DNA of 64,000 nt. Origin: Cyanophora paradoxa CCMP329. Taxonomy: Eukaryota; Plantae; Glaucophyta. Position 1 is the first letter of the stretch, and the number at the start of each line of letters is the position of its first letter. The notes beneath the pieces are model-generated. The model was not told the DNA's origin and did not search any database. It worked only from the letters and a program-made list of their open reading frames with translations. The stretch covers positions 1 through 64,000 of the forward strand of contig QPMI01000280.1 of assembly GCA_004431415.1 (NCBI GenBank), in the 5' to 3' direction. The position numbers and the translations under genes are program-made. Of the stretch, positions 10,497 to 47,377 are shown one piece after another.

Positions 10497-11009
10497 AGCT
10501 GAGCTTGGCGCGGTGTCTCCAACAATTAAATCCGCGAATTCTTACGATTTACCGTAACAGCATCGAATCTAATCGAAAATCACCGTAAGGCTCAGTGTCA
10601 CGATCGATTCATCTTCGATTCATCTTCGATTCACTCGATTCATCTTCGATTCAATCGATTCAATTCAACTTTTTATGCGCGGCTTCTCCCACGATTCCGC
10701 ACGATAGACAGTAAGGAGATCTATTGTACAATCGATTCCGCAAGATAAGCGGCAATGTACAATAGATCTCGCACGATAAACAGTAACAATTCACGTTTTT
10801 TCGTGCGGTGTCTCCCACGATAACAACACGCTTCAATAAAAATAAATCTTACGTCGGGTTTCGCCCTTCCCCCGTCGTTTTCGGTGCAGCAAATGGTTGC
10901 GCAACCATTTTTTTTGGTTGCGCAACCACCGCAACCAGGTCGCGCAACCACCGCAACCAGGTCGCGCAACCATTTTTTTTGGTTGCGCAACCACCCCGCA
11001 ACCATTTTT

Positions 11010-12079
11010 TTATGATCCCCCCCGCTTCGTTACGCCGCTCCTCAGATTGTACCGACGCCTCACGACCCTACTTCGATTGGGTCTGACGCCCTCCTTCGCG
11101 ACCAACCGATTCACCTTATTCGTTTTCTTTACGCGTTCAATGCGCTTTTGCGACGGGATCTTTATGATCTCTTCCTTATTCACCTTCTGTAATTCTTGCT
11201 TCTTAAAGCGCCGCTTTACTTCCTTCTCGTCTCCGTCGTTATCTTCTAAAATCTTGAACCGGTTCCCATCCGACCTTCCCACTTTGTAGACCTTTTGACT
11301 AAAACGGGCGCCCTCTTTGTCGAAGGCACCCACGCGACCCTCCAAAACACGCACTGTGTCGCCCGGTTTCACGGGATTCGTTTCATTCGCCTTCACGTTG
11401 TCGTTGTGAACAGTATCCCGTAGATACACAAAAAGTTGTTTATCTACGTTTGCATACACGGCGTTCGGCGAATCATTCTTTAAGGAACTATGGGGGCTAT
11501 TGTTATAAATCGATAGAACTTCGGGAACCATATCTATCCATTTCGTTGTCCCTTTCGAAGTCATCGACTTGCGTAGATACTGTTTAAAAGTGCGCGTAAA
11601 TCTATCTATGATTCCAAGTTTATTTCCTACGGTTATGTGTTCTTCTTTCGCGACATCTGTATACAACCTCACACCATTCGCATTACACCAATCTCTATAC
11701 ATCGCGCTACTGAATTCATTATCACCTGAGAGTGCAGCAACCATACCCGCTTCCTGTTTGAATTTATTCAGAATATTCGGAATGTCTTCGTTGTTCTTAA
11801 AAGGATACACGAATGCCTTTCGACTTAGAATGTCAACGAAACTGATCATCTTGTAAATACCATTGTTTGCTGTCTGATACCCTTTAAAAAACATAATGTC
11901 TACCTGAAATGAATTCGGTTTCGCGACGATTCTTAAAAATGTGGTGGGTTTTCGGGGTTTCTTAAAAATCTGATGCACTTCGGAATTTAAATATCGCTTT
12001 TCAATTCTTTTTCGTCAAATGTTACATTTTCGTTTATAAGTTTCTGTCGATACTTCTTGTAAGATAGAACGTTGTCCAT
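11010..12079 (-). CDS. Retroviral-like (rve) integrase of Polinton type; one-base frameshift in an A-run near 12000
   Basis: Catalytic motifs are FQVDIMF, SGDNEF and GIIDRFTRTFK, followed by YNNSPHSSL and an SH3-like C-terminus (PGDTVRV...QELQKV). The true start MDNVLSYKKYRQKL at 12079 matches copy 2 MDTVLSYKKYRQKL. The track ORF 11010-11978 lacks this N-terminus. Confidence 0.9.
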
Positions 12080-15000
12080 TACTGAGCAGCACAGTTACAC
12101 CTAATATGAGACAGGAAACAATTTTTGGTTGTATGGGGCAATGCGTTATTCACTCGATCGATCGAGATTACATTAAGATCGAAATCCATACCACCATAGC
12201 AACGAAGGCAATGACCATATTGTTTTCCGTAGCGTTTTTTGAACCACTCCCAATTCACATAATCGTTTTCGTCAAATGGTCGGTTTGCCTTCTTATCCTG
12301 TTCCTTATACTGTTCAATGCGCTCATTGAACTTGCGCTTGTCAACGACATGTGTTGCCCACTCGAATCCATCATGGTAAATTTTGACCCGATTTAGTTCA
12401 GTAGTTCGTGTGACCGCTGTGTAAAACCATTCGCTCGAAACAAACGGTGCGCCCGCTTCGTAAATGACGACGTTCCCATTCTTGCACACAATAGTATCAC
12501 CCTGAATGACGTGACAAGTGTAAGCGTAAGGGAGCGCGAAATAGCGCATTGCGGGCGGGTCTAACCTCACTTCCTCCTTCGTCGCGATGTCCTCGATGAC
12601 GAATTCTGTGTCGTTAAACGCCTTAATCGTGTAGCTGAACCCATTGTGAATGGTTACGCCATTCTTCACGATCCTTTGCTTCGCGACAATTTCCACGCCT
12701 TTCGCGTAAATAGGAACATCTTCCCCGTGATTCATCCTGTGGATTTGTAGATTTACTTCCGCCGCTTTGCGGTTGGTGTAAACTATCGCGCGGTCATCCT
12801 TTCCCAATGCGTTCACCGTCTCAAACTTGTATTTATTAATTACATCGGGAACACTCAAACCGTTTTCGAAAAGATCACGGCGTATACACTCGACTGTATC
12901 GCGATCTTCCTGGGTCTTGTGGCGCTTGTTAACTTTCAGGACTAACTCGTTTCCGAAAAGATGCCGAAGAATATACGCGTAATACTCTTTCTGATTTACG
13001 GTCATCTCCTGTATCGGTGGGTTCTGAAAGGGGTCGCCGGTAGCCACGTAGACCTTGTCGGGGAACAGAACCCCCATAATGTGGGCGAGCGCCCCCAACT
13101 CGGGGACTGTGAACTGACAGATTTCGTCAATGAAAATACCATCAAAGTCCGCCAAACCGGAAGCGTTCCCGCCTACGATCTCTTCCATGTTCGAATCGTC
13201 AACTTTGAGATGGAGCGCATCGTAAATAGTTTTGACATTCTTTATGCCTTTCAACTTCATGTCTCGAATGCGCTTGTTTGTCGGAACGATGAAAAGTGGA
13301 TTTTGGAATTGCTTCGAATACTCCATCATCATGTGAGTTTTCCCCACTCCGGGAACAACGCCAAGAATAATCCATCTTTTCTGAGTCGCAAGAGTTAGAC
13401 AAATCGCTGGTGTGTCGAATTCATCAACTGCTGAGAAAGTGAAATAGTTCAACTTCTCTAATTTCACGAAGTCGTCCTGTCGCTCCAATTTGCCGTAGTG
13501 AATACGCCGCAAGTTTAGCACCTTGTCTTTGCCGATATACTTCTTGATGAAATTGGGGCAATGCTTTACACTGAACCCCCCGATGTTTTCGTAGGCGTGG
13601 CGGTCGAAACTAACGAGGGGGATTGGGTCGCACGAGGTAGTGTAGACGCAATCGGTATTCACAGCAACAGGATTAATCCCTTTTGCACTGAGTTCTACGC
13701 ACTTCTCGTATAGATTCATGCGCATTAGGGAATACATCAGGTTGTGGAACGGCATGAACCCATCGGTAAGATATCTTTCGGCTACTTGATTCACATAGTA
13801 GATACACGGTTCCGTAATCTCTTCCTCGCTAATGACGTAACAAGTTGGGTCATACGATGTTGGATCTTTACCAAACACGTAGAGCTTTACTTCTCCGCCA
13901 TATTGCTTTTGGAATTCGATCGCATCGTCTCTCTTGTTGAAGATCGTGGTCTTTACTTTGTGGTTTTTCTGTTTCCCAATCTGTCCGATATTGGCGACAA
14001 GCATTTGCTTTTTATCGTTCGGGTCAAGATCACTTTGCATGATTTGCCGAATCACATCGCCCGAGAAATTCGGAACCAACTTAAATGGTCGGAGAACTCC
14101 CTTTATGGTAATGTCGTCTTTCAGAGCATCGTAGTGTTTTTTCAGAACCATTCCCGGAATGACATTGTAAGCCGAATCAATTAGCATGCGCTTGTGACGA
14201 TCATACGTGTTAAGAAAATACGTCGATCCGTCGGGGTTCTTCATTGGTTTGAAAAACTTCGAGTGCAACTTCACGTAATAGAAATTGTAGTTTTCGATCT
14301 GATCCGCGGAAGTTACAGTCGTCTTTTTGAAGTAATCGAATTTACTAACGACAGGAACGAATTCGATCTGTTTCGCGATGATTGCGGGGTATGCCTTGCA
14401 CACATCGTGTTCGTAAATGTTTTCGTTCCAATGGAGGTCATCCCGGGTTTCGGTATCTAAGTCGAAGAACCCACGAAGGGCGGTCTGTGACCCAAGGCGG
14501 AAGGCTGTCATGGTCTGATCGTTGTATGAACTCTTGTTTGCATTGTTCACGAGACTCAGATACATTTTCAGATTCAGCCGCTCGAACTTATCACGATACT
14601 CTGCGTCTTTGAATTTCACTTCGTAAGCGGTTTCCACATCTGTGTCGGAACCGGGTGGTGTGATCGTAATACTCTTTTCACCATACGTGAAATGAATGTG
14701 TGTGATCTTGCGCATTGGGGAAATCCCCGCATGCACCTGGTAATTCACATCAACAATGAACTCTTTCAGAAGATCGTCGAGGTATCCACTGTAACAGATC
14801 GAAATTTTGCTCTGGTTCTTCATCTCCTCCGAATTGATGATTTTCACGATATCCTCAGGAGTTGCCGCAAATTCGCGATGTTTTCTTTGCTTGACAATCT
14901 TGAATCGCGACCCCACCGAAAGATTCGTGTCAGAATTCGACTTCGACCCATTGAAAGAGTGAGTTAGTGATTTCAGGTTATCGTTTAGTAGATACATGTG

Positions 15001-16182
15001 ACCGTTTTCGATTTTCACGTATGCAACCGATGGCGTGAGGTGTGTATTTCTCGTTTTCGGTTTGAAAGTGAGTTCGGGTATTTCGGTCTTATCGTCTTTA
15101 TCGATCGTGACCATTCCGATGCGGTATGGTGTCAGAACCTTTTCTACGATTTCCTCAAAGGTGAAGCCCCAATCGTCCCCCTCTGTGGGTTCCCGACCCC
15201 GAATCATTTTAAATATTCCACTGTGTGTCCAATCGACCGATTTATACTTGCCTTTCGCTTGCGCTTTCTGAAACGCCTGTGCGAAATGCATCACAAGCAC
15301 ATCCGGAACACACCGACCCACTTTAAATCTATCACCCCTAATGAACAGTTCCCCCAAAGTTTTGGCTTTTGGGTTCGTCTCATTGCGCAAATACTTCGAT
15401 ATGATCATCGGGGCATGTTGCGTATCGCGTAGCGCTTGCTGTTGTCTCGGCGTATACGTTTGGTTGTCGGTGGTGATGATTCGTTCAATTGTGATGATCT
15501 CACCGTAAATGTCCTCTTGAACAATCGTCAAGTATCGGAAGTCCTGGTTTTCCTGATTGAAGCGGACGATTTCGAACATGAATTGATGGATGTCTTCGAC
15601 AGTTGTTAGAGCAGGGAAAGAATTGAATGTGTTCGTTATTTTTTCGAGATTTGCAAGCAGCGCTTCTTTCGAACATTGGATTGCAAGAGGTTGATTACTA
15701 CGGGTCTTTTTCAGATCCCGGTAATACAAACCGTTCGCTTGAATCACAACAGCGTTTGCGGGCAAATTCGCGATTTCGTCCTCTGCGACCTCTTTGTAAA
15801 GTCGAACATGCAGCGTGACCATGTCGCCTGGCGAGTTCGCAATGAACTCGCCAAGATCGGTTTTCATCCGATTGAACGGATTCGTGTGTGTCTTTGTGTT
15901 TCTCTCTGGTCGCTGATTCACCAACTCCTGTGGAACATCAATACGACCCAAGCGGTTAATTTCGTCTTCTGTGTTTTGCTGAGCCTCACCTCTCGCAATG
16001 ATATCATCAATTGAGTATTCGATGTCGTTCAGTGCGCTTAGTCTCGGTCGTCTGACGAAGGCAAAGTGACCGAATGCGTTAAATTGCTCTTCATTCATAA
16101 ACCCATTTCCAAGAGCATAACCAAGCTTCGAAAGAATACTCGCTCTCTTCTTAGCGGATTGGATACTAACTGCGCGAGGCAT
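12079..16182 (-). CDS. polB: 1367-aa replicase: N-terminal domain + vOTU-like Cys/His domain + protein-primed-type family B DNA polymerase + SF1 (Pif1/RecD-like) helicase + His-Me/HNH nuclease
   Basis: PolB motifs: A YEHDVCKAYP, B KKQMLVANIGQIGK, C AVNTDCVY. Helicase motifs: PGVGKT, IFIDEI, GDPFQNPP, YAYTCHVIQGDT, YTAVTR. C-terminus: CLRC...SIDRVNNALPHTTKNCFLSHIRCN. N-terminal RCVPD...NGHMYLL. The ORF is uninterrupted. Confidence 0.85.
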   Translation of the reverse strand: MPRAVSIQSAKKRASILSKLGYALGNGFMNEEQFNAFGHFAFVRRPRLSALNDIEYSIDDIIARGEAQQNTEDEINRLGRIDVPQELVNQRPERNTKTHTNPFNRMKTDLGEFIANSPGDMVTLHVRLYKEVAEDEIANLPANAVVIQANGLYYRDLKKTRSNQPLAIQCSKEALLANLEKITNTFNSFPALTTVEDIHQFMFEIVRFNQENQDFRYLTIVQEDIYGEIITIERIITTDNQTYTPRQQQALRDTQHAPMIISKYLRNETNPKAKTLGELFIRGDRFKVGRCVPDVLVMHFAQAFQKAQAKGKYKSVDWTHSGIFKMIRGREPTEGDDWGFTFEEIVEKVLTPYRIGMVTIDKDDKTEIPELTFKPKTRNTHLTPSVAYVKIENGHMYLLNDNLKSLTHSFNGSKSNSDTNLSVGSRFKIVKQRKHREFAATPEDIVKIINSEEMKNQSKISICYSGYLDDLLKEFIVDVNYQVHAGISPMRKITHIHFTYGEKSITITPPGSDTDVETAYEVKFKDAEYRDKFERLNLKMYLSLVNNANKSSYNDQTMTAFRLGSQTALRGFFDLDTETRDDLHWNENIYEHDVCKAYPAIIAKQIEFVPVVSKFDYFKKTTVTSADQIENYNFYYVKLHSKFFKPMKNPDGSTYFLNTYDRHKRMLIDSAYNVIPGMVLKKHYDALKDDITIKGVLRPFKLVPNFSGDVIRQIMQSDLDPNDKKQMLVANIGQIGKQKNHKVKTTIFNKRDDAIEFQKQYGGEVKLYVFGKDPTSYDPTCYVISEEEITEPCIYYVNQVAERYLTDGFMPFHNLMYSLMRMNLYEKCVELSAKGINPVAVNTDCVYTTSCDPIPLVSFDRHAYENIGGFSVKHCPNFIKKYIGKDKVLNLRRIHYGKLERQDDFVKLEKLNYFTFSAVDEFDTPAICLTLATQKRWIILGVVPGVGKTHMMMEYSKQFQNPLFIVPTNKRIRDMKLKGIKNVKTIYDALHLKVDDSNMEEIVGGNASGLADFDGIFIDEICQFTVPELGALAHIMGVLFPDKVYVATGDPFQNPPIQEMTVNQKEYYAYILRHLFGNELVLKVNKRHKTQEDRDTVECIRRDLFENGLSVPDVINKYKFETVNALGKDDRAIVYTNRKAAEVNLQIHRMNHGEDVPIYAKGVEIVAKQRIVKNGVTIHNGFSYTIKAFNDTEFVIEDIATKEEVRLDPPAMRYFALPYAYTCHVIQGDTIVCKNGNVVIYEAGAPFVSSEWFYTAVTRTTELNRVKIYHDGFEWATHVVDKRKFNERIEQYKEQDKKANRPFDENDYVNWEWFKKRYGKQYGHCLRCYGGMDFDLNVISIDRVNNALPHTTKNCFLSHIRCNCAAQ

Positions 16183-16417
16183 TTTGTTGGCGCTTTCCTT
16201 ATTCTATACAAATAAATTTATTCTTTAAGTGATTTTATTCTATGACGTCATTTTTTGACCGGCGCATTTTAGCGATCGGTCAAGCAAATAGGAAAAATAA
16301 CAAAGGGTCGACCATCATACAATGGTTCTAAAAATAATACAAACAAGATTTATTACGATTAAGCGCGGTTGCGCTCGCGCTGGGTTCTCAGGGCAAACGC
16401 GCTGAGAAAAAACAAGA

Positions 16418-16672
16418 TCAGAAGTAGATCGAGGGGCGCCCCCGATTTGAGTGCGGAACCCCATAAAGGTATTTAATGTAACACACGGCGTTAGCGACGT
16501 ACTGGCGTTGTGAACTATCGACTATCTTCATCGCTCGGTAACACTCGTCGGTGTCGTATAATTCCTTCATTTGTTTCGACAGTCTGTTGCTGTACTTTTT
16601 AAGATATTCACGACCCTTTTCGGTCTTGCGGTAACGGTAAATTGCGCGCTTCTGTGCTTCGCTAATCGGCAT
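16418..16672 (-). CDS. Small basic 84-aa protein, possible DNA-binding regulator
   Basis: MPISEAQKRAIYRYRKTEKG...GVPHSNRGRPSIYF. A syntenic homolog lies at 47154-47370. Confidence 0.7.
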   Translation of the reverse strand: MPISEAQKRAIYRYRKTEKGREYLKKYSNRLSKQMKELYDTDECYRAMKIVDSSQRQYVANAVCYIKYLYGVPHSNRGRPSIYF

Positions 16673-17037
16673 CGTACTTTGTCCTCTTCTGATATATAAC
16701 AAGAAATCTTTAAGTCCTTTTTGTTGTTGGTATATACTTGTCTTGAAAAGCCGTCATTTTTTTGCACCGTTTTGAAAGAAGATGCCGGAAAAATAAATCG
16801 AAGTGTCCCCGATTGTCTACTTGTCGGTCGCAAGTTTCCACGAATGAACCCCGTAGAACAGGTGATAAAAGCGCGATATACATGGATATCACTTCTTTCT
16901 ACAACGCCACCCATAAAAATGAGTAAACGTGAGCCTACGCGAATGGATTGTTTACGTAGCGCTACATTTGAACAAGAAATTTTTTAACGGCAAAATGATC
17001 ATTTACGCAAAAACGTCGGGCTACGCAAAGGTCGGTT

Positions 17038-17494
17038 TTAAAACCTCCGGTAACCGGGGCGGATCCCAAGTTTTGCGAACCCCGAAAGCATGGGGGCGGC
17101 GGAGGGAACCGATGTAATGGGGTCGGCTTGCGAAGTGGCGACCCGAAGTAAACTCTTGTTCATTACCGGTAAATCGGTCTTGTTACTCTCCGCGTAATCG
17201 ATGGTCTTAGCGATTAATTCAATTGGCGTATTCTTCGCGGTTGTGATTGGATCGGGAAGAACGTCGAACGTCACATCCGGTTTCTTTTCGACCTTCTCTT
17301 TCGTGATCTGCTGTTCGAGAATCTTGTTCTCTAACGCGGTCTCGTTCGCAATCCCCTGAACCATTTTTTTGGCGTCCTGGTATTTGACCGATTTAAGACC
17401 GCCCGTTTTCAAGCGGATAAAGTAACGATTGCGGTTATCCTTCTCCGAGTATGTCGAATAAAGTCGCTCGCCGCCATCATAAAGTCGCTCGCCG
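17038..17494 (-). pseudogene. 5'-truncated homolog of the 46032-46778 viral gene
   Basis: DGGERLYSTYSEKD...AAPMLSGFAKLGIRPGYRR aligns closely with the 46032 product. The N-terminus in the track ORF is satellite sequence, and there is a ~21-bp tandem duplication at the breakpoint. Confidence 0.85.
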
Positions 17495-20400
17495 CCAAGT
17501 GGGACCCCCGGCGAGCGTTTGGGGACTTGAATGTTTCCTGGGTTCACTCCCTCTTAGCCCTGGTCAGTTTGAATTCCCGTCTGGCCCACAAAAGCAAGGA
17601 CCGGTGCACACAAAACCTTTCCAGGGGGAACATGCACAAGGTGCTAGCCTTAGGCAGGTGCACCCTGCCCAGCAGAGGCCCGGTACGAGGGTCTGCCCTT
17701 CCAAGTGGGATCCCCACCGAGTGTTTGGGGACTTGAATGTTTCCTGGGTTCACTCCCTCTTAGCCCTGGTCGGTTTGAATTCCTGTTTGGCCCACAACAG
17801 CAAGGTCAGGTGCACACAAAAACAATCCAGGTGGAACATGCACAAGGCGCTAGCCTTAGGCAGGTGCACCCTGCCCAGCAGAGGCCCTGTAAGAGGCTCT
17901 GCCCTTCCAAGTGGGACCCCCGCCGAGCATTTGGGGACTTGAATGTTTCCTGGGTTCACTCCCTCTTCGCCCTGGTCAGTTTGAATTCCCGTCTGGCCAC
18001 AAAAGCAAGGTCAGGTGCTCACACAAACATTCCAGGGGGAACATGCACAAGGTGCTAGCCTTAGGCAGGTGCACCCTGCCCAGCAGAGGCCCTGTACGAG
18101 GCTCTGCCCTTCCAAGTGGGATCCCCACCGAGTGTTTGGGGATTTGAATGTTTCCTGGGTTCACTCCCTCTTAGCGCTGGTCAGTTTGAATTCCCGTCTG
18201 GCCCACAAAAGCAAGGACCGGTGCACACAAAACCTTTCCAGGGGGAACATGCACAAGGCGCTAGCCTTAGGCAGGTGCACCCTGCCCAGCAGAGGACCTG
18301 TGCGAGGCTCTGCCCATCCAAGTGGGATCCCTGCCGAGTGTTTGGGGACTTGAATGTTTCCTGGGTTCACTCCCTCTTAGCCCTTGTCAGTTTGTATTCC
18401 TGTTTGGCCCACAACAGCAAGGTCAGGTGCACACAAAAACAATCCAGGTGGAACATGCACAAGGCGCTAGCCTTAGGCAGGTGCACCCTGCCCAGCAGAG
18501 GCCCTGTAAGAGGCTCTGCCCTTCCAAGTGGGACCCCCGCCGAGCATTTGGGGACTTGAATGTTTCCTGGTCTCACTCCCTCTTCGCCCTGGTCAGTTTG
18601 AATTCCCGTCTGGCCACAAAAGCAAGGTCAGGTGCTCACAAAAACATTCCAGGGGGAACATGCACAAGGTGCTAGCCTTAGGCAGGTGCACCCTGCCCAG
18701 CAGAGGCCCGGTACGAGGCTCTGCCCTTCCAAGTGGGACCCCCGGCGAGCGTTTGGGGACTTGAATGTTTCCTGGTTCACTCCCTCTTAGCCCTGGTCAG
18801 TTTGAATTCCCGTCTGGCCCACAAAAGCAAGGACCGGTGCACACAAAACCTTTCCAGGGGGAACATGCACAAGGTGCTAGCCTTAGGCAGGTGCACCCTG
18901 CCCAGCAGAGGCCCGGTACGAGGGTCTGCCCTTCCAAGTGGGATCCCCACCGAGTGTTTGGGGACTTGAATGTTTCCTGGGTTCACTCCCTCTTAGCCCT
19001 GGTCGGTTTGAATTCCTGTTTGGCCCACAACAGCAAGGTCAGGTGCACACAAAAACAATCCAGGTGGAACATGCACAAGGCGCTAGCCTTAGGCAGGTGC
19101 ACCCTGCCCAGCAGAGGCCCTGTAAGAGGCTCTGCCCTTCCAAGTGGGACCCCCGCCGAGCATTTGGGGACTTGAATGTTTCCTGGGTTCACTCCCTCTT
19201 CGCCCTGGTCAGTTTGAATTCCCGTCTGGCCACAAAAGCAAGGTCAGGTGCTCACACAAACATTCCAGGGGGAACATGCACAAGGTGCTAGCCTTAGGCA
19301 GGTGCACCCTGCCCAGCAGAGGCCCGGTACGAGGCTCTGCCCTTCCAAGTGGGATCCCCACCGAGTGTTTGGGGATTTGAATGTTTCCTGGGTTCACTCC
19401 CTCTTAGCGCTGGTCAGTTTGAATTCCCGTCTGGCCCACAAAAGCAAGGACCGGTGCACACAAAACCTTTCCAGGGGGAACATGCACAAGGCGCTAGCCT
19501 TAGGCAGGTGCACCCTGCCCAGCAGAGGACCTGTGCGAGGCTCTGCCCATCCAAGTGGGATCCCTGCCGAGTGTTTGGGGACTTGAATGTTTCCTGGGTT
19601 CACTCCCTCTTAGCCCTTGTCAGTTTGTATTCCTGTTTGGCCCACAACAGCAAGGTCAGGTGCACACAAAAACAATCCAGGTGGAACATGCACAAGGCGC
19701 TAGCCTTAGGCAGGTGCACCCTGCCCAGCAGAGGCCCTGTAAGAGGCTCTGCCCTTCCAAGTGGGACCCCCGCCGAGCATTTGGGGACTTGAATGTTTCC
19801 TGGTCTCACTCCCTCTTCGCCCTGGTCAGTTTGAATTCCCGTCTGGCCACAAAAGCAAGGTCAGGTGCTCACAAAAACATTCCAGGGGGAACATGCACAA
19901 GGTGCTAGCCTTAGGCAGGTGCACCCTGCCCAGCAGAGGCCCGGTACGAGGCTCTGCCCTTCCAAGTGGGACCCCCGGCGAGCGTTTGGGGACTTGAATG
20001 TTTCCTGGGTTCACTCCCTCTTAGCCCTGGTCAGTTTGAATTCCCGTCTGGCCCACAAAAGCAAGGACCGGTGCACACAAAACCTTTCCAGGGGGAACAT
20101 GCACAAGGTGCTAGCCTTAGGCAGGTGCACCCTGCCCAGCAGAGGCCCGGTACGAGGCTCTGCCCTTCCAAGTGGGATCCCCACCGAGTGTTTGGGGACT
20201 TGAATGTTTCCTGGGTTCACTCCCTCTTAGCCCTGGTCGGTTTGAATTCCTGTTTGGCCCACAACAGCAAGGTCAGGTGCACACAAAAACAATCCAGGTG
20301 GAACATGCACAAGGCGCTAGCCTTAGGCAGGTGCACCCTGCCCAGCAGAGGCCCTGTAAGAGGCTCTGCCCTTCCAAGTGGGACCCCCGCCGAGCATTTG

Positions 20401-32208: not shown

Positions 32209-32465
32209 AGCTGAGCTATACGCCATTACTCCGCACGTTTAAACTTCCGAGATCCAGCGTATCCAATCGGATTTATTACGATATTCAGTGTATCCAATCG
32301 ATCTAATCGAGAAACTCAGTATTCTCAGTATTGCAATCGACGAGATTCCCGATATCCTTCAATCGATAAAATCTAAACCATTCTCAGTCTGAAAATAAAA
32401 ATAATCCGCTTCAATTCATGCAAAAAATGAAAGAGTTTAAAACTATTATCACATCGATCTACAAA

Positions 32466-32738
32466 ATGACCACCATTATACCAGATAACGTAAGAGAGAT
32501 ACTACAAGAGATTACAACAACTCCAAATGAAGAGCAAGCAAACGCAATTTTAGAGAGAACCGCTAAGAGTATTGGTTTAGATGTTAGCAAACTACCCAAT
32601 AAATTTAAAAAAGAAATCATGAAAGACTTCTTTTCTTCCATGGAAACTATCGACACATCCAAATGCTCAAAAATATTAGAAAAACGACATGATGCAAACC
32701 ATGCACGGGAGAAATTACGCAGAAAGCATGGTTTCTAA
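32466..32738 (+). CDS. Hypothetical viral protein (90 aa)
   Basis: AT-rich ORF MTTIIPDNVRE...AREKLRRKHGF, preceded by CAAAAAATGA at 32421. Confidence 0.55.
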   Translation: MTTIIPDNVREILQEITTTPNEEQANAILERTAKSIGLDVSKLPNKFKKEIMKDFFSSMETIDTSKCSKILEKRHDANHAREKLRRKHGF

Positions 32739-32947: not shown

Positions 32948-33511
32948 TCTTAAAGAGGGCATCGCGACGATTCCGAATCTTTTTTCAGAATCGAAAACGG
33001 AGCTGTTGGTGAAGAGTTACAGCAGTTTGTATGAATTTCGTCGAAATTTGTAGTCGGCTTGTCGATTAAACGTCAAGCCGTATCAGGCTTGTCGTTTTTA
33101 AGTCAAGTCTCAATCGCATTTTCCGGTATCCCCCGTTTCGCCTTATGAATGGAACTTTCGCTTTTTAGGTATCCCCCGTTTCGCCTCTGACATCTTCCCC
33201 CCATCGTCCTGAAATCATCCCCCCATTGTCCTGAAATCATCCCCCCATCGTCCTGAAATGTCCGAAATTCCCATAACATATATACCGCATATAATACACA
33301 ACCTCCGACATATATACGTCATAAATACCTAAAACCTCCGAATTCCCGGTTTGATCATACGGAATTTCCGGTGAAAAAAGTGTATATATATGTGCATATA
33401 TACATCGTCGTTTCGCGTGTCGGCATCTTCAAAACCTCGTAACTCTTCACCAGATCATCACCTATTCAATCTAAAACCGTCGCCGGAATGCTCATTTAAA
33501 GCGCTTTACAA

Positions 33512-33912
33512 CTATACCGTAATCGTAGTGGGTTCATTACTAATTCTTACTGATTCTCTCTTTTTTATCGCTCGTCTCTTAACAAACTTGCGAAACGCTT
33601 TCAAATCATCATCTGTTATTATTGCACGGTCTGTGTATACTTTGATGTCATACCCTTGTAATCCAGTTATGACGGTCTGATAGTTGTAACCCCAAAGTCT
33701 TCTTGTCCAATCCACCATTATATTCATCAAATGCACAATTAAACTCTTTTTCGTTCCCAAGAATATTGAAAAATACCACAAATTCCACGTTACGACGAAT
33801 GGTAGTAGAAATAGAGCATATACGTTGGACATTGAAAATAACCGTGATACCATAATGTCTTCCGCTCGTTACCAGTTTGGATAACACAGCCGAATTATGC
33901 ATATCCAAATTA
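33512..33912 (-). pseudogene. C-terminal remnant of an A32/FtsK-like genome packaging ATPase
   Basis: LSKLVTSGRHYGITVIFNVQ...IRRNVEFVVFF matches the GRH, Q and IRxN motifs of A32 ATPases. The Walker A/B half is missing at the Helitron junction, and there is a frameshift near 33690. Confidence 0.78.
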
Positions 33913-36900
33913 GATCAATTTTTAACGTCCTGGCTCCCCTAAGACGACCGCTCTCCCGTGGGCGTCGTGCGAAATCGAATTTCCCTCTGCATCAATTCCG
34001 GTACTTAACCTCCGACAAACACAGTCCAGGTCCGAAGGTGGGACCCGGTCCCGCCCGGTTCCGCGACGAAACTGCGCCAAGCACGCCCCAGAACGATACA
34101 GAATGCCGCGCGAGGGCGAGCGCATCGCCGCAAGCTCGATTTCGGGCGGCCTCGAGCTCGACGCTCCAGTGCGAAGAGTCGGCCGAAAATTTGATCCAGC
34201 CGGTCCCGCAACGTCCCGCGACGCGCGCAATCGATGCGTACGGACGCGCATAGACATAGCAGGGCCTGCGCACCCCCGAAATCCGCTTTTCGGAGCCGGA
34301 ATAGCGCACGAAGGCTCCGGCGGCAAAAATTCGATCCTGCACAGGCCCCGACATCTTTCCCCGCGCGCACGCCGCGGCGCATGCGCGGAACAATAGTATA
34401 AGTATTTGAGATGTAGACGAAGCATTCTGCACGCTTTGCAGGTGCGCTGGGCCGCGAGGACCCAGCCGACCCCAAAAATTCGATCCTGGGCGGACCTGTG
34501 CATCTTTCCGCGCGCCCTCGCGTGCTCACCCATGCCCATCGCTACCTAGTATTAATTTGAGATCTATACGAAGCCTTCCGCAATCTCTGTGGCGGGGACA
34601 GAGCACGAGAATCCAGCCGACCCTAAAAATCAGATCCTGGCCACGCCTGCACATCTTTCCGCGCGCCGTCGCCTCCGCGCCGCAGCCCTCCGCATTGATG
34701 CTATATGCATTCGAGATTCTGTTTAAGCGGTTCGCAAGCTCTGCGCATGCATATGCGCCTGGCTGCGAACCTCGCCCCTCCCGGGCCTCCGGATCCCCCC
34801 CAACAATTGCAATATATTAATATGAAATTAATCTCCTCTCAATTGCAATCTGCTCCACCAGTTGAAACCAAGCATTACCGGTCCAACTCCTCCCCTAATT
34901 ATAATAAGCTATCGGACCAGCCTGGCAGCATGGCCCGGCAGCCAGCCAGCTGTTCAGCCAGGCCGCTGGCAGTGCGCATGCGCCAAGCCTACCGTGCACG
35001 TGCCTACTCGCCAAGGAGCGCGTCGATCCGCTCCATGCGGCCAGGGCGCCCGGCCTCCCTCCGAACAACATTATATAATTATTCTCCGAGCGATGTAAAT
35101 TAATGTGACTCCAGTAGACTAGAGGCTGTGGCCGGAAATTCACCAAAAACAAAACACTAGGCCTAGGCTGGGGAGTGCTTACTATTAAATATTCCTCCGA
35201 GGCTCGCCGGCGAGTCGCCGGTAGGCAGTACTTACTACCGCGGTAATTTGCTGCTGAGAATTCGAAGTCGCGCCATACAGTACCGTCTGAAATTACTTAA
35301 AAAGCTTCCCCGTACAATTGCAAGCCTCAAAGTTTTAAACCCGCGTTAATTTCGTACTGCGGTATTTCGGTCAGAGGACGCCCATTTTTGAAACCGCGTT
35401 AATTAACGCGCAGTAATTTAGTGCCCGACGGTATTTCAGACTAGCCGACTCGGGCACGACCAGCTATATATAGTGGACCGCCGGACCTGCCGCTGGCTGC
35501 CATGCAATGGCATGCATATCGCCAGCTTCCCAGCTTCCATGCATATCCCTACTGATTCGCCAGCTGGCCAGCTTCCAGCCAGACAGGTCAACGGTCAGAC
35601 AGGTTAAAAAAAGATCTTGAGAACGCGAAAAGGCCATTAACAGAAGATCTTGTCAAATCTTGAATAAAAAAAAGATCTACCGAAACCAAAACGGCGCCAT
35701 TGCCCAATCCACCGTGCATGTACATCGATACATATAGACGAATGGATGCACAGACTAACACAGTCATACACTACTAGTAGTGTAGAGCTTATGCTAGTGT
35801 TGATCGACACATAATCTACCTTCCAATTCACAAAAGATTTTGCGGATCTCACTGATTCAGATCTAGAGTCTTAGCTATAGCGAATCTCGAGATTCTCGAC
35901 GTTCGCGACTCGGCGATGACCGCAAACGCTATAGCTATATATCTCGTACTGACTGCCACTACCAGGGCCCGGCGTTTCTCGCTGTTGCGGCACTACGTAG
36001 CGAGAAATTAAGGACGCGTAGCAGATATTGAAAAACCGCTAGAGGCAAGATCGGAAGCTCGGCGCTTGCGTGCAGCTCAAGCTTGCGTGTAGCTTACGCG
36101 GCTGAGGAAAACCGCGTAGCCCCGGAGCTCCCAGCGCCGCGATTGGCTGCCAGGCTGCTCGCGTAACGCGTAGCTTGCGGCTGTAGCTTAGGCGCGGAAC
36201 CTTAATCTTCAAATTAGGGTTCCGCGCGTAAGCAAAATTGCTTACACTCCGTTACGAAATTACCTTTTCCTTGATATCGCTCTACGTAGCTTAATTCGTA
36301 AGCGCTACGTAAGGCCTTACGCGCAAGGCCGCCATACATTTTGGCGACAGCGAGAAACGGCCCTGCCAGGCCGAGCCTCGGAGGCTGGACCGTCGCACGC
36401 CGCACTGCGGCATTTCGAAAGCGCGAATTCGAAATGCCGCAGTGCCAGCAAGCCTAAGCCGCCAGCTCCAGTTCCCGGCGGCCAGACACTCGCACGCAGT
36501 GCCAGCCGACTCCCGCCTGCAGATCTGGCCAGCAACAACGCTAGCTAGCTACGACTCTTGCACGCCACTGGGCCAGCCTGGCAGTGCTCGCGATCGTGCC
36601 ACGGTGCCGCAGTGCTAGCCTATAGTACCGTATACTAGCCTAGTAGCAACATCGACGCCAGAGCGCGCAAGCAGTAATTGCCAGGGAGCTTAAGCAGACA
36701 GTGCGTGGTCAGGCTGGCCATGGCTAGCGCCCGATCGGGGGCCTGGACAGCTACTAGACTATAGCTAGCTACGAATCTTGCACGTTACCCTAGTACTACG
36801 GTAGTGCTCGTGCTATAGCTAGTCTAGCATACGTACCTGCATGGCCGCCTCATCCCGCAAGCAGTAAGTGGCCAGATTAGCCTATACTAGCAAGATCGGC

Positions 36901-39900
36901 GCCGGATCGCGCGAGCAGTAACTGCCAGGAAGCTTAAGCAGACAGTGCCATGTCAGGCTGGCTAGCACCCGATCATACGTACCTGCATGGCCGCCTGATC
37001 GCGCAAACAGTAAGTGTGACGAGCTTAACCAGACAATGCCAGATTAGGCTGGCTAGCTCGCCGGCTTCACACCAGAATTTACTATCGCCGCGCTGCGCAG
37101 ACCGCGGTCAACGTCAATGTACACGCACGACTGCGTTGACAATTCACCCATACGTACACGTACATATACGTACGTGTTGACAGCGACTCCCTTGAACGTA
37201 TATATATACGTTCAAGGGAGTTGATGTATATTTTTTTTTCAGGATAGCCCAATTCTTGGGCGGTGGTTTTATTCTCAGACCACTGACTTCAACGTATGCA
37301 CTACTGGTTCGGAATGGGCCGAACTCTGGGTCAGCTCATGACCTGTGGCCGGTACACAGGGATAGGCGCTTCGACGCTAACTCTAAGCGTTCAGTGTGGC
37401 CTTGGGGGAGAGCTTGGGCGGGGTGTCCTTCTTGGGCTCGCGTTGGCGGTACGTGGATCAGCGACTACGAGCACCCGAATGAGCTACTGCACGACGTAAT
37501 TGACGCAATCGCAAAGAAGCGGAGTAAATTTCCGCAGTTTCTCGAAGCGCTGAAGGACGCTATCATCGACATGCTGTACAGTGTGTTAATTTCAATTCGA
37601 TTATGTCCATTTCGCCATTAATGCTCTCCGCAGCTCTGTACCAGCCGATGGTGCCATGCGATTGCTGCGGCGTCCGTGACTACATCGACGATCTCTACCC
37701 CGAGACGCACCCGAACATATTGAAGCCCCACGGGATCGACGACGCCGCGATGCGGCGCATTCAGGAGACGGAGGATTACATGCACAAGCTGGAAACCGGA
37801 ACATCGAAACCGCGGAAACCGTTGCTGTGCGCAATGTGCCACAGACATCGCGCAGAGCAAGGTGTCGATATCTGTGGGCTTTCGAAAGAGGTCCGAGTCA
37901 GTCTCTACCACTCTCCAGTATGTTCACTGACTATCCCCGCACAGAACGGCATCCACCCGACACCACCGTCGGAAGATCTCACCCGGGAGGCAGCAGGCCT
38001 CACGTTTCCAGAGGCTGTCGAATGCAGTCCTGCCGTGTCGTTCGTGAACATCGCAACCACGCGCATCGGTCGGCAGCAGGCCGCGCACCCGAAGGTCACC
38101 ATGGTTTACTCGCAGCCCGCCGAGCTCGTTGAATCGATGAAGCCCCTCGCGCCGGGAGACGCTATGATGTACGTGAACATGGAGAAGCCGACGGCGCCCG
38201 GACACGACCGCAAGTTCACGAACTTCTGGGAGTTCAGCACTTCCAAGGTGAGAAGCGTCATGAAGCTGCTCGTCGCGGCCGGCAACAAGTGGTACCAGAA
38301 ATGCGGATTCGACAAGCTCGACGACGCCTACTGGGAGAAGGCCACTGCCGACGCAGAGAACTGGAAAGCGGACCTCGCTGACGAAGAGCAGCACGACCGC
38401 ACCCCTGCACCGCCGCGAGTCGCCCGCAAACGTGGACGCCAGCCTCACGTTCCCGGAACCGGAGAATCGGTGGACCTGACAGCAGTACCGCACGCGGCGA
38501 CGGGAACCGAGTCAGCTACCAGCGACGAGGAGACCGAAGTTTCGGAAGAACCCGAAGTGCACGACGACGTTGGATACGAAATCGCCAGCTCCGGAGCCCG
38601 TCGCCTGTTGACCGACGTAGGAGATCCCGTGTTGAAGCAGTTCATGGAGTCGTCGTTGAAGCTCGCAATGACAGCACGTCCTCCTCTGCCAACGGCAAAG
38701 CCGGAGGTCGGGCCAACACGTGACGCGTCAACAGCAAGGTCGACACGTGACACCGGATCCGAGGACGAAGCCGACGACGCGCCCAGATTCGCCCCTCCCG
38801 ATCTCGTGGACCTCGACAAGCTCGCGCAGATCAACAACAAGGACGTCGACGAGTTCGTGCAGCTTGCACGTGCTACGGCGCACGACGTCGATACAGAGGC
38901 CGCAGTGTACAGCGACCCCACCGGATTCGACATGCCTCAACAGCCGGCAACGCCCGCAGTCGTGCAGTCCGAGTATCACCACAGGCTCGTCGACGTTGCC
39001 ACAGCGTTCGGCGAAGATGTTGCCGAACGTACTCGCACGTTGCCGATCCTCGATCGCGTCCACTTAAATTTCAGCAAGGGTGCAGAGTACTGCACAGCCC
39101 CATTTCCATTTGCGTTTCCAGACGGTGAGCACTGTGCACCGGCACCGTCGTCGATTTGTGATTTCGTGCAGACGGACATTGACCCTTTCTGAACGCAGGC
39201 CGGCACGGACGGATAGGCGACCCTGCAGACCCTCTCGATCAACGCAAAGTACCGCTGTCGATCAGCAAGTACAACAAGTGGTTCCTGCTGTCCGACAAGG
39301 CGCGCGCCCTTGTCGCCGACATCGGATTCTTCTTCGTCCAGGCGACGGATTATCTCAACCTCAAGGCTTACCAGAAGAGCAACTGTGCAATTCAGAGTCT
39401 CGAGCTCGACAAGTTGGAGGCGGCCGGTCACCCGGTGACGGCCGTGCACGTCATGGACCACCTCACCACCGCCGTCGATGACCCCGACGTTACCGTAGAC
39501 TTTGTTAAGCGCCACCTCGTCCGTGCGACGCTGAATGCGGTGAGTCCGCAGCACACCCTTGACAACAATTTGCACATTATTTCCTGACGCGCCCATCTCC
39601 AGGTGCCGGGATCGCACCAGCATCTCGAGACCGGTCACGGCCAGCTCATTGCTGCCGCACAGACGTACGGCCCGCCGCAGATATGGTACACTATGAGCTT
39701 CAACGATCACGGTGACGCGAGTCTGTACAGAGCCATCGACCGCGAGAGGTTCCACAACCAGGCCGCAATCGATGCACTAAGCGCAAACGAGAAGGACGCG
39801 ATCCTGAACTCGGAGTCCGGAATCGTTGTCCGTCACTATCAGCGGCGCTGGAACGCGTTGATCGAGCTGATGTACTCCGAAGGCGCGAGGGCGATGTTCG

Positions 39901-42900
39901 GCGGTTACAAGATGACAGGTCATTTCATCCGTCACGGCGAGCAGCAGCGGCGGACCTTGCATGGGCACCTCATCGGCTGGTGCGAAGGCATGCCTATGTA
40001 CGACACGTGCGAGAAGCAGCACATGAAAGACTACCTCGAATTCTTTGACAGCATCGTCAAGGCGGAGATCCCTCGACCTCCAAAGCCCGACGACCCAGCC
40101 GTCCAGGACAACCTTCACGTGCCGGATGCCCTTCGACATGATTGGGCGACCGCGTTTCTCCGGAAGGTCATCCTCACGTTCAACATTCACCGACACAGCG
40201 GCACGTGCCGCATGACGAAGGCCAAGCAGGCACAGCACTATTCATCTTCCACGCACAAGCGTCACGAAGAGCTCTTCGCCGCTGCAGCGCAGTTCAAGCC
40301 GACTCAGGAGTACACGAACCCGTTGCTGGAAGGATGCCAGCCCATCCACGGCGCTTCCGACAAGGACGCCCAGGAACTTGCCGACCTTGTCAAGAAGCTG
40401 AACAACGCCTGGTGGAGGGCGAGGAAGTGGTGCCGCTTCGGACTGCCAGGCCGCGCGTCCCGATACGCGAGACTCATGTGCGTGCTCAAGTTCTGCGATG
40501 ACGTGCCCCCGGTCGACGCCAGGTCGACGCCAGAGCTCAAGAACGCGCAACGCGGCGACAGGCTACTGGTGCCGATGCGACGCACAGTAGAAAACTTGTT
40601 TGTGGCGCTGTTCAACGAGTGGCTGTCCCGCATTGCGCACTCCAACCTCTTCTTCGATCTCGTCGCGGACTTCGAAGCGATGGGAGCGTACATGTTCAAG
40701 TACGCACTGAAGGTACGCCCGTGCTCACGCGTCCCTGGACAGACGTAGCACGTACTGAAGCTCATTGTGCGCCCGCAGGTCGAACCGCAAGCATTGGAGA
40801 GCATATACGCTGCGCTCGCAAAGGCGGGCGAGAAGGGAGGCACCCTACGGAGCGCGATGGCGAAAGCAATTCGGAAGTCGCTCTCGCACCGCGAACTCGG
40901 CCGGCCGGAGGCAGCTTTCCATATGCTCAACTACCCCATCTGGCACTCGTCGTTTCACGCCCGCACCGTTCCGTGCATCCCTCCGGACAAGCGGACAAGA
41001 CGTTCGTACCAGCGCGGCTTCATGCGACCGATCCGCAACCGCAATCCTGGCGAGACGAAAATATTCGTCAACAACGACATCGACTGGTACATGGAGAGGC
41101 CTGACGACCAGTTCTGGAACGTGATGCTGCTGTACAAGTTTCTGCAATGGTTTGCCGTCGTCGCCAAGAAAGACGGGATTCGAGGCGACAAGATCGACAT
41201 GTCTCCCTTGGCAACAGCCACGTTGGAGACAGGACGAACCGAGCCGCATCACACCGACTCGCAACACGGTGGCGACGAGCCGGAGGATGACGAGGATGAC
41301 GACGACGACCATCCTGACTCAGACGCCCCGGAGTACCCTCAGCGCCAGATCGAACGCGAGCACCGCGAGGAGAAGGCACGGCAGGCCAAGACGTGGGTAT
41401 TGGACCCGCTCTGGCAGCGATGGCTGCGTGAAGACGCTCTGTCGGACGAAGAGTGGCGACAACTACAGAAGACGCCACCGCTCGTGATCCCGGACGGAGA
41501 AAGGTGCATGCCGTGCTTCAACACCGCGAGCGGCAAGAAACAGCTACGGATGCGACGGCAACCCATGCCAGTTGTGATGCCGTTCAACGTCCACTCCGGC
41601 CAAGTTGCCAAGTACGCGCCGCTCCTCTTCTACCACCCGTTCCGCAACGAGTGGACGGACCTGCTCGACATGCCGGCTCGTGCGGAAGTCACTGACGCCA
41701 TCCTCGCGGCGGCAATGACAAAAGCACGGAAGGCAACAATCACGCGCCACGCCTCGGCTGCAAGCGACAACATCCGCGTGCGCATGGAAGAGATCATCAG
41801 CCGGATCACCGACATTCCGAACATGACGGCGACGGGCGCAATCGTGACGGAACACGCGGAGCCCAGCACCATCAGAAACGCAGCGAGCGGCTTGGGAGCG
41901 GGACTGCCAGCGCCATCGTTTCAGCCTGCATCCGTTGAAACCGAACAGGCGGTCCTACGAGCGCATGGTGTCATTCCACCCTCCGCTGAAGCGGGGACCG
42001 GCGGACCGTCCGTTCAGGCGGCCCCACCGTCATCCCGAGCTCCACTCGTGTCGCCCGACAACCTGAAGCCCGAGCAACGCGAAATCTACGACAAGATGGT
42101 GAAATACTTCGAGCTCAGACGCAAAGCGGAAGCGCTGAAGGCAAGAGCTATGCGATACAGGCGCGATGCGGAGGGCGGTCAAGACGTGCCGGAGATTCTG
42201 AAGTGCTGGTACATGCCTGCAGGACCGCGCTTCTTCGTCACAGGAGGAGCGGGGTGCGGAAAGACCGTCCTACTGCGCTGCATCGAACACGCTGCAAACC
42301 AGTACAACGTTGGTGATGCGGGACTGGAGGCCCTCCCTCACGGCCGCTGCACCGTTGCAGCACCGTTCGGTTCCGCAGGCTTCAACGCAGGTGGGGGGAC
42401 CATGCACACGCGCTTCCACCTCCAAACGCACCTCTCCGGCAAGCGCGACCAGATCAAGCACAGCAGCTTCACAATCGACAAGCTGCGACTCGAGCTGCAG
42501 CAAACGTACGTCCTGCAGATCGACGAAATCATGTCCTGCTGGACGAACATCTTCTACTCGTTCAAGACGGCCCTGGAGGACGCCATGTGCGGACGAGAAG
42601 CCGTCGGCGACCCGGAGACTGGCTTGGCGCCGCCACCTCTTCCGCAGTACCAGGTCGGACCCGACGGAAGGACGCCGGTGATGCAACGCTACCCATTCGG
42701 AGGCTTGGCAATCATCACGTACGGGGACGCGGCCCAGGTGCCGCCGGTCATGTCGCAGTCGTTGTGGGAGACATTGTTGCCGGCACGGAAGGACATTACG
42801 ATGCAGAATGACGTCAAGTGGCACACGCCGAACCTGCACACCTTCCCCAGCTACTTCACGGCTCACGTCCTGCCCTCGTCGATGCGGCACCTGGCGGATC

Positions 42901-45019
42901 CAGAACTCGGCCAAATCCTCAACTGGTTTCGAGACGGGGATCCGGACCACGTCGACGACGTCTACCACTACCTTCTCCGCCGGTGCCTGGACCTCAACAA
43001 CGATCTCGGCGACGACAACGAGAATGCCATCCACAACACGCTGACCAAGAACCAAGACCCCACATGGGACGAAGCGTACCACATGTTCCTCACGAACAAA
43101 CTCGCAGAGCAGCACAACGACGCGATGATCCGGCGGCACCACGCGCAGTACCGCGACCCTGTCCTAAAGATCGTCGCCAAGGACACCCATCCCCGCGAGC
43201 ACATCAAGAAGTGCGAGACCGTGGACGCGTATGGCCAGATAATCCCATGCACGAACGAGCAAGGCAGCATCCCACACAAGGTCATGGTGACGCCCGGCAT
43301 CAAGGTCATGCTCAGACAGAACCGCGACACAGACGACGGCCTCCTCAACGGGGCCATCGGACTGATCGCAGGTTACAAATGGCGAGAGCACACGGAGACG
43401 CCCGACTACATCAGTCAGCACGCCGCAGACTTTACGCCCGACACGCCGCTCGTGCTCGAACACGCTGCGCCGGATCTCGTCCAGCACGCGCTCGACACTG
43501 CGGACCGTGCCCCCAAGCCCGAGCCGGAACCGGAACCGGAACCCGAACCCGAGCCAGGACCTTCGGACCGGAAGAAGAGCAAGCCAAAGGTCAGCAAGGA
43601 CAACATCGTACGGGCCGCAGCGGCGGTGACGAGGCAGAAGAAACAGAGCATAGAGGCGAAGGTGGAGCACCTCCCGCATCCGCACCTCATGCCCCCGATG
43701 ACGTACTACATCTACTTCCACGATGACCGCGTCGGCCGGCGTGCAATCACGGAACGCTGCCAGCTCCCCGACGGTCGAATCGTCGATGCCGTCGAAATCA
43801 ACGTCGAGCCCAGAAATGCCGGTGAGCCGCTGCATCTGTCATCACGATCGTCAACGGAGATCCGCTTCCCTCTCGAGATTGACTACCTTCTGCCGGTCCC
43901 ATTGCGCAGACCACGAGGACGAAATCGCCGGCGGGGCAGGAGGCACGCACAACGTCAGGATAGGCCCGCCGTTCCGCGTCGCCTACGGCACGACGGTCTA
44001 CAAGGCTCAAGGGCACACCCTGAAGCGTGCAATCGCCGACGTGCGGGGCATGAACAGCAGGGACTACACGCACCGACAGCAGCTGTACGTCATGCTCAGC
44101 CGCCCGCGCGAGGGAGCGCACTTCTTCATCGCGAACGCCTCGCTCCTGCAACGGTACGAGCTGCTGCACGTGATTCAGAACGTCAACCCCGACCTGCAAG
44201 CCGCCATCAAGGACCAGAAGGCCGAGAGCGCAGAATTCGCGCGGCTCCGGCAAGACGATCCGAAAACGCACGCAAGAATGTGGGGCCACAAGCTGCAGTA
44301 TCTGCGCTGGATCGAGGACAGCACCGCGCCGCACGGTCAGCGACTCGTCAACGCCGTCGCGATGGAATGCGAGCCAGGCGACTGGGGCCAAGTCGAACAG
44401 TTCCAGTGCGAGTTCGAAAAGGCGGAGGCCGAGTTCAAGAACAAGCGCTTCGTCGACACGATGCCGAAGCGCGTTTCCGCGGCGGCACGCAAGCGTTAAG
44501 TGCGTTACTTCATGCAGATCTAGATGCATTCTGATCATAACTCCCACTGACGTATTTTTGTGTGCAGAAAGAAATAACGCGGTGCATCTACGGGACCTGC
44601 ATGCACGTGCAGCCAGACTGCCCGTCGATCATGCCCGCGTTTCTAGGTAGAATTTCGTCCAATTACATGTGTTTCTATACGTTCGCTCGCTCGGCCAGTT
44701 ACACGCATCTGCATAACTCGGCCAGCTGCATGCATCTGCCACTTCCTCGTAGCTGCACGTTAATGATTGCGATCATGCCCTGGGCCGTCCCCCGTCCCTG
44801 TGCTTGCAGATTGAAAGTTCTTGTCCAATCAACTCCAATAAATATTACGTGTGTACTCGCTAGGCTGGACTCGCTCCTCAACTGTCTCGCTCCCTTGCGC
44901 GTACGGGCCAGCCCGGCGGCCCAGCTATATATACGCTAGCCAGCCAGCCAACTGTGACAGCCCTGACGGCGTCCTCGAGGCTTCGCCGTACTTAGTGCTC
45001 CGCAGGAGCACGGATCTTG
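33913..45019 (+). mobile_element. Autonomous-type Helitron (Helitron2-like), 5' end probably missing
   Basis: Contains a RepHel gene and ends with hairpin GTGCTCC-GCA-GGAGCAC (44995-45011) then CTTG|T (45016-45020). The left part is homologous to the 29093-31037 element. Confidence 0.85.
37603..44499 (+). CDS. Helitron RepHel (HUH Y2 Rep + Pif1-like SF1 helicase), spliced; introns 39125-39198, 39540-39602, 40713-40778, 43822-43909; start uncertain
   Basis: Rep motifs: GPPQIWYTMS, EQQRRTLHGHLIGW, YMFKYALK, RELGRPEA. Helicase motifs: TGGAGCGKT, IDEI, GDAAQVPPV, VMLRQNRDTDDGLLNG, AYGTTVYKAQG, YVMLSR. Four GT-AG introns join the track ORFs in frame. Confidence 0.9.
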
Positions 45020-47370: not shown

Positions 47371-47377
47371 GTCTTTT

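What the first reader, a model, noticed from the sequence alone, without database searches (positions are those of the whole stretch)
10497..10620. Opposite ends of the two virus copies share an AGCTGAGCT terminus, implying hidden terminal inverted repeats
Seen: copy 1 starts AGCTGAGCTtggCGCggtgtCTCCaacaaTTAAAtccgcga...TTACGAT...ATCGAATCTAATCGAAAA...CTCAGT, exactly where the satellite stops. Copy 2 starts at 32209 AGCTGAGCTataCGCcattaCTCCgcacgtTTAAActtccgaga...TTACGAT...ATCGATCTAATCGAGAAA...CTCAGT, exactly where the Gypsy integrase stops. The copies are oppositely oriented, so these are the integrase-side end and the far end. Known: Polintons begin 5'-AG, and protein-primed replicons have short terminal reiterations for slide-back initiation. 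Inference: these are TIR origins with an AGCTG-AGCT reiteration.
Basis: partly seen in the sequence, partly recalled or inferred. Interest (0 to 1): 0.7.

Follow-up and report, generated by a model that had tools for sequence, protein, structure and literature searches.

The report
Conserved ends of integrated polinton-like viruses
Two broken, distantly related virus-like elements in this eukaryotic genome start with the same nine bases and a similar 100-base stretch at opposite ends, which likely are the matching inverted ends used for copying and integration, an expected feature of this known kind of element.

Summary
AGCTGAGCT occurs only at 10497 and 32209. The next 100-120 bases align at 71 of 98 positions, and 0 of 1000 shuffles reach the score. 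Both sites are junctions: 10497 breaks a 206-bp satellite, public contigs start exactly there in 4 of 4 runs laid, and one contig bridges the retrotransposon/32209 junction in 3 of 4 runs. The elements are polinton-like, with a Tlr1-type replicase (protein-primed-type polymerase fold, SF1 helicase, HNH-like tail) and an rve-type integrase. They are two families (about 66-70% DNA identity), not copies. 10497 lies beside the integrase and 32209 beside an ATPase fragment, so they are likely opposite ends and terminal inverted repeats are the best reading (0.8). This is inferred: each element has lost its other end, so no repeat pair and no target-site duplication can be seen, and no major capsid gene was found. 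The 5'-AG start fits Maverick end motifs. A five-base jump-back at AGCTG-AGCT is untested (0.2). Ordinary for the class; interest 0.3.

The parts
10497..10505 (+). Terminal 9-mer AGCTGAGCT of element 1 (integrase-side end)
   Evidence: contigs start at 10497 in 4 of 4 runs
10497..10602 (+). Conserved terminal block, homologous to 32209-32329; multi-copy in the genome
   Evidence: 106-107-base contig in 3 DNA runs at about 8-13 times the depth of the single-site contigs
10603..11010 (.). Subterminal non-coding region with short tandem and palindromic repeats (11-mer, 22-mer, 14-bp palindrome x3); likely the rest of the inverted repeat
   Evidence: extent of the repeat is inferred
11010..12014 (-). 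rve-type integrase of element 1; frame broken near its 5' end in the window
   Evidence: Pfam rve E 0.0037, below cut-off; 155 homologues, the listed ones 34-42% identical, most with PF00665; contigs of 4 of 4 runs differ from the window at the break
12079..16203 (-). Open 1374-codon frame: Tlr1-like replicase (putative vOTU Cys/His, PolB motifs A-C, SF1 helicase, HNH-like tail)
16328..17497 (-). Two small conserved frames; element 1 is cut off at about 17497 by the 206-bp satellite
   Evidence: 21-bp tandem at the junction
32209..32420 (+). Left end of element 2 (ATPase-side end), starts AGCTGAGCT, inserted in a Gypsy-type pol frame
   Evidence: 401-base contig bridges 32140-32363 in 3 of 4 runs
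32370..32738 (+). Small frame of unknown function; a related contig carries it close to the ATPase 3' end
   Evidence: joint 32680 to 33510
33500..33914 (-). C-terminal half of a likely A32-type packaging ATPase, frameshifted; 5' half missing
   Evidence: Pox_A32 E 7.9e-4, 19.4 bits, below the 22.8 cut-off; many high-depth relatives in the runs
33925..45010 (+). Helitron-type insertion splitting element 2 (boundaries approximate)
   Evidence: Helitron_like_N and PIF1 hits; GC 0.585 against 0.38-0.42
45097..45999 (+). Possible minor capsid protein (unproven)
   Evidence: Atlas neighbours are viral hypothetical proteins; fold unusable; no homologue found; motif likeness is recalled
45993..55799 (+). 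Rest of element 2, collinear with element 1: two small frames, broken replicase with a GC-rich insert, broken integrase cut by the 124-bp satellite at about 55799

Best explanation
10497 and 32209 are the outer ends of two related polinton-like elements, and they likely are the two arms of a terminal inverted repeat that begins 5'-AGCTGAGCT. The element would replicate as a linear DNA from both ends with its polymerase-helicase fusion, predicted to be protein-primed, and would be inserted by its rve-type integrase, which would read the same ends. Shown: the ends, their homology, the junctions, the polymerase fold and the multi-copy nature of the 10497 end. Inferred: that both arms sit on one element, that 32209-33914 belongs with 45010-55799, and that the ends are origins and integrase sites.
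For: Homology above chance. Junction at 10496/10497 fixed by satellite phase (35 of 36) and by contigs that start at 10497 in 4 of 4 runs while satellite contigs turn away at 10496: several different flanks precede this end. A single contig bridges the 32209 junction in 3 of 4 runs. The two ends have different neighbours (integrase against small frame plus ATPase), while gene order is the same wherever the elements can be compared. In public relatives the integrase is mostly near a contig end: 16 of 18 loci over 4 kb end 45-899 bases after it, 13 of 15 groups at 90% identity. The replicase model (mean pLDDT 78) has phi29 polymerase as all 9 PDB matches at E <= 0.001 and protein-primed polymerases at the head of the viral library; candidate vOTU Cys and His and PolB motif A and C aspartates are invariant in 102 of 102 aligned sequences, as described for Tlr1-like helicases (PMC11161782, section 9). 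Maverick ends are 5'-(AG)3 or (AGT)2 (PMC8097293, passages).
Against: No element shows both ends: element 1 is cut at 17497 (satellite resumes 31 bases out of phase, no duplication), element 2 at 55799; no reverse-complement copy of either end is in the window. Depth is ambiguous: 10742-10912 has about 2-4 times the depth of the integrase 3' part, but the integrase core has as much summed depth (1426 in X3 at 11804) as the terminal contig (840), and the tool says depth is no copy number. The link between 32209-33914 and 45010-55799 is broken by an 11-kb insert, and the ATPase 5' half and any major capsid gene are missing. None of the 80 metagenomic loci shows this or any common end motif, and none of 19 long loci shows terminal inverted repeats. 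A terminal-protein domain was not identified. Motif B has V where 91 of 102 have N.
Confidence: 0.8

Rival explanations
1. The two sites are the same end of the element in two families with different gene order, or 32209-33914 is a third, separate insertion; the element need not have inverted repeats.
For: The 32209 piece is separated from the rest by the Helitron-type insert with loss of sequence; L047 and L071 have an internal integrase, so order varies among relatives; depth does not prove two arms.
Against: Order is conserved over all four genes that can be compared; no further end-like sequence lies between 33914 and 45097 or elsewhere; linear protein-primed elements with rve integrases generally have inverted ends (PMC12220804, passages).
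Confidence: 0.13
2. The true end is 5'-TG (TGAGCT), as in retroviral-type integrase substrates, and the shared AGC is host target sequence; the reiteration is then illusory.
For: The satellite reads CAGC at this phase, so a one-base loss would supply AGC, and the tandem-repeat finder runs the array to 10503. TG..CA ends for such integrases are recalled.
Against: Multi-copy contigs start at 10497, not 10500, in 4 of 4 runs; 35 of 35 other satellite units keep the extra C; AG starts are the rule in vertebrate Mavericks.
Confidence: 0.05
3. The match is chance, picked after the fact from AT/CG-patterned junction sequence.
For: Margin over the next hit in the window is small (72 against 66); bases 10-45 alone are weak.
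Against: 0 of 1000 shuffles and 0 of 234 interior windows; both matches begin exactly at independent junctions.
Confidence: 0.02

Closest known systems
Tlr1 elements of Tetrahymena and PLVs with Tlr1-like helicase (pPolB-S1H)
   Same: Large vOTU-palm-SF1 helicase-endonuclease replicase together with an rve integrase and a packaging ATPase; multi-copy and integrated (PMC11161782 section 9 and passages; PMC5499653 passages).
   Different: HNH-like rather than GIY-YIG tail; no major capsid gene found in the window; nearest public replicases only 25-33% identical; I saw no end sequence for Tlr1-type elements in what I read.
Maverick/Polinton elements
   Same: 5'-AG start with a short reiteration, rve integrase, protein-primed-type polymerase (PMC8097293 passages).
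   Different: Polymerase fused to a helicase, without a recognised exonuclease; repeat unit of 5 bases rather than 2 or 3; 6-bp target duplication not testable; no maturation protease gene found.
Endogenous PLVs and mavirus-like elements of protists
   Same: Low-GC inserts in a higher-GC host, terminal repeats of hundreds of bases, nested transposons, insertion near host repeats (PMC10120064, PMC12220804, PMC8547959; passages).
   Different: Those described as complete have both repeats; here both elements are truncated by satellite arrays. Host lineage was not determined.

Membership tests
Tlr1-type polinton-like virus | Replicase with pPolB palm fused to a C-terminal SF1 helicase | tested here: met
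   phi29 polymerase best fold match, E 6e-8; motifs A-C; Pif1/RecD/Dda matches for the helicase part
Tlr1-type polinton-like virus | vOTU Cys/His upstream of the palm | tested here: inconclusive
   One Cys and one His invariant in 102 of 102 sequences at the expected place; the domain was not searched on its own
Tlr1-type polinton-like virus | Terminal-protein domain | not tested
   N-terminal part of the model has low to medium confidence; no separate fold search
Tlr1-type polinton-like virus | rve integrase | tested here: met
Tlr1-type polinton-like virus | A32/FtsK-type packaging ATPase | tested here: inconclusive
   88-residue fragment, Pox_A32 E 7.9e-4, below cut-off
Tlr1-type polinton-like virus | [quoted passage not shown] | tested here: inconclusive
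   Not found in the window, but both elements are truncated and the two query frames were only presumed capsid genes
Tlr1-type polinton-like virus | Minor capsid protein | tested here: inconclusive
   45097-45999:
Maverick/Polinton (strict) | Stand-alone full pPolB with exonuclease | tested here: not met
   Polymerase is fused to a helicase; it fits the Tlr1-like layout
Maverick/Polinton (strict) | Terminal inverted repeats on one element | tested here: inconclusive
   Opposite ends of two elements are homologous; no element has both ends
Maverick/Polinton (strict) | 5-6-bp target-site duplication | not testable with these tools
   Second ends lost; no whole genome held
Maverick/Polinton (strict) | 5'-AG end with short reiteration | tested here: met
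   AGCTG-AGCT at both junctions; unit length differs from (AG)3 and (AGT)2

The most novel reading that the evidence does not exclude
AGCTG-AGCT is the base-exact replication origin of an integrase-bearing Tlr1-type element, where the exonuclease-less polymerase-helicase initiates at position 6 and jumps back five bases, a longer jump than in phi29, PRD1, Bam35 or adenovirus. With an open 1374-codon replicase frame beside it, this gives a matched enzyme and origin for testing whether Tlr1-like 'helicases' are active protein-primed polymerases. In favour: conservation between two families stops exactly after the 9 bases, and only 0.3% of interior 9-mers have this period-5 pattern (2.4% at any period 1-5).
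Probability: 0.2. Interest if true: 0.55.

Novelty: new member of a known kind. Interest (0 to 1): 0.3.

Why it matters
It fixes one end of each of two integrated virus-like elements to the base and gives a probe for finding complete members in a genome that seems to hold many relatives. Whether Tlr1-like polymerase-helicase fusions are active protein-primed polymerases is a prediction in the literature (PMC11161782, section 9); a defined end sequence is what such an assay needs. Inverted ends themselves are expected for this class, so surprise is low.

Tried and rejected
Degenerate end patterns: 1 match in viral contigs, inside a coding region of an unrelated-looking contig and treated as chance; 0 in metagenome contigs with the stricter pattern. 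Single-protein locus searches found nothing for the window integrase and P0009; the replicase alignment was too divergent to search with. Word-based protein searches found no relative for the replicase region or the possible minor capsid protein. Contig ends of 80 integrase loci gave no common motif; metagenomic ends are imprecise, so this says little. L002, L003/L071 and L047 showed no terminal repeats. The single-sequence fold of 45097-45999 was unusable (pLDDT 33.5). No Rfam match in the window. No RNA holder listed. A weak match of the 10497 end at 33381-33530 was inspected and rejected. Earlier scan findings: none by place, sequence or words. Literature: no paper held both AGCTGAGCT and polinton; the motif is not in the two supplement files of PMC12220804 as held. 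The original Polinton paper was not held, so its end rules are cited through PMC8097293. Supplements of preprints were not visible and may list such ends.

Full report
Observation. The two stretches are as quoted. AGCTGAGCT occurs only at 10497 and 32209 and its reverse complement nowhere in the window. 17 of the first 24 bases are identical; 10497-10596 and 32209-32329 align at 71 of 98 columns with 25 gap columns, the main gap lying on a 31-bp duplication in the 32209 end. 0 of 234 interior windows reached it. Against this, bases 10-45 alone are weak (4-211 of 1000) and the window-wide margin is 72 against 66.

Junctions. 35 of 36 satellite units at this phase continue as satellite; the one ending at 10496 continues with the 9-mer. 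Twenty of 24 listed public runs, from 12 studies, hold 10497-17490; I laid 4 of them. In all 4 a contig starts at 10497 and satellite contigs turn away at 10496. In a de Bruijn assembly this means that more than one flank precedes the end (inference). The terminal contig has depth 840, 785 and 184 in the three DNA runs, against 61-90 (X3, X19) and 19-23 (X11) for single-site contigs at 32140-32992. The tool warns that depth is no copy number, and the integrase core has as much summed depth from related families, so this shows a multi-copy end but not a 2:1 repeat. At 32209 one 401-base contig bridges retrotransposon and element in 3 of 4 runs; the fourth run has no cover there. In one run a variant skips 10609-10668 and carries 17 letters of which 14 match 32358-32371, a small further link between the two ends, though 11 of them also occur at 10649-10659.

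What the elements are. Element 1 (10497-17497, minus strand) has an rve-type integrase and an open 1374-codon frame. That protein has 934 relatives at E <= 0.001, the best about 30% identical. A model of residues 8-900 (mean pLDDT 78) matches phi29 polymerase in all 9 PDB hits at E <= 0.001 and protein-primed polymerases in the viral library; the alignment profile matches SF1B helicases; a Cys, a His and the motif A and C aspartates are invariant in 102 of 102 sequences. This is the Tlr1-like helicase layout, predicted in the literature to be an active protein-primed polymerase (PMC11161782, section 9 read whole). Element 2 is collinear over four genes at 45993-55799 on the plus strand but only 66-70% identical in DNA. 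To the left, beyond an 11-kb Helitron-type insert, lie half of a likely packaging ATPase (Pox_A32 below cut-off), a small frame and the 32209 end. The ATPase 5' half is missing and no major capsid gene was found; the 45097 frame may be a minor capsid protein but this is unproven. The host is a eukaryote; I did not determine its lineage.

Are they opposite ends? 10497 lies 513 bases past the integrase stop; 32209 lies beside a different gene set. Of 80 metagenomic integrase loci kept (of 105), 18 exceed 4 kb, and 16 of these end 45-899 bases after the integrase; that is 13 of 15 groups at 90% identity, and only 2 of the 18 carry a replicase matching this family's profile, one of them with an internal integrase. 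So the integrase is usually a terminal gene, which suits 10497 as a natural end. No shared end motif or terminal repeat was seen in those loci. Both window elements have lost their other end: at 17497 the satellite resumes 31 bases out of phase beside a 21-bp tandem, and at about 55799 the 124-bp satellite cuts the integrase. No inverted pair and no target-site duplication can therefore be seen.

Mechanism. Most likely (0.8) the element is linear with inverted ends that serve as origins for protein-primed synthesis and as integrase sites. Vertebrate Mavericks end in (AG)3 or (AGT)2, thought to allow jumping back (PMC8097293, passages). Known back-steps are one base at a time (phi29, PRD1), a third-to-first jump (Bam35) or three bases (adenovirus) (PMC5175343, passages). 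AGCTG-AGCT would need five. Conservation stops right after base 9 and the pattern is uncommon inside the elements (0.3%; 2.4% for any period 1-5), but integrase recognition explains a short conserved tip equally well. I give the five-base jump 0.2. Rivals: same end or a third insertion (0.13), a TG start with AGC from the host (0.05), chance (0.02).

Comparison and novelty. Endogenous polinton-like viruses with terminal repeats, nested transposons and low GC are widely described (PMC10120064, PMC12220804, PMC8547959, bioRxiv 10.1101/2025.10.09.676808, PMC12721341, PMC5499653; passages only). The element works like a Tlr1-type member; strict Polinton membership fails on the polymerase, and capsid features are inconclusive. 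The motif was not found in print; closed supplements may hold it. Verdict: a real, correctly read terminus of a new member of a known kind; interest 0.3.

Noticed in passing
window 49983-53292: A GC-rich (0.66) insert of about 3.3 kb in the element 2 replicase is flanked by an exact 19-bp direct repeat (49983 and 53274) with a T run at its left edge, like a non-LTR insertion on the minus strand; no Pfam match in 8 frames scanned.
   Followed up: partly
window 33360-33908: The ATPase fragment draws contigs of many diverged relatives at summed depths of thousands, against about 65 for single-site DNA, so the genome likely holds a large family of such elements.
   Followed up: no
window 29315-30162 and 33929-34782: 79% identical copies of the left end of the Helitron-type insert; a second, probably shorter member sits in the retrotransposon cluster.
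   Followed up: no
window 17458-17497 and about 55799: Both elements are cut off by satellite arrays without duplication; the first junction has a 21-bp tandem that may be a repair scar, the second shows short microhomology.
   Followed up: partly
window 1-7662, 7663-10496, 17495-22492, 55799-64000: The 124-bp and 206-bp satellites share a core of about 30 bases; the arrays enclose a nest of elements, as in centromeric or heterochromatic regions. No Rfam match.
   Followed up: no
window 10891-11010: Three copies of a 14-bp palindrome plus 22-bp repeats just past the integrase stop; DNA runs show a frequent variant joint at 10915 to 10894.
   Followed up: no
window 12079-16203 and 49800-49870: Both families lack the asparagine of PolB motif B that 91 of 102 aligned sequences have; activity may be affected.
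   Followed up: partly
window about 11997: Contigs of all 4 runs differ from the window by one base in the 5' part of the integrase gene, so the break in this frame may be an error or a private change of this copy.
   Followed up: no
L010, L014, L047, L066: The closest integrases sit right behind 1,240-1,370-residue proteins that do not match this replicase profile, pointing to exchange of the replication gene beside a shared integrase family.
   Followed up: partly
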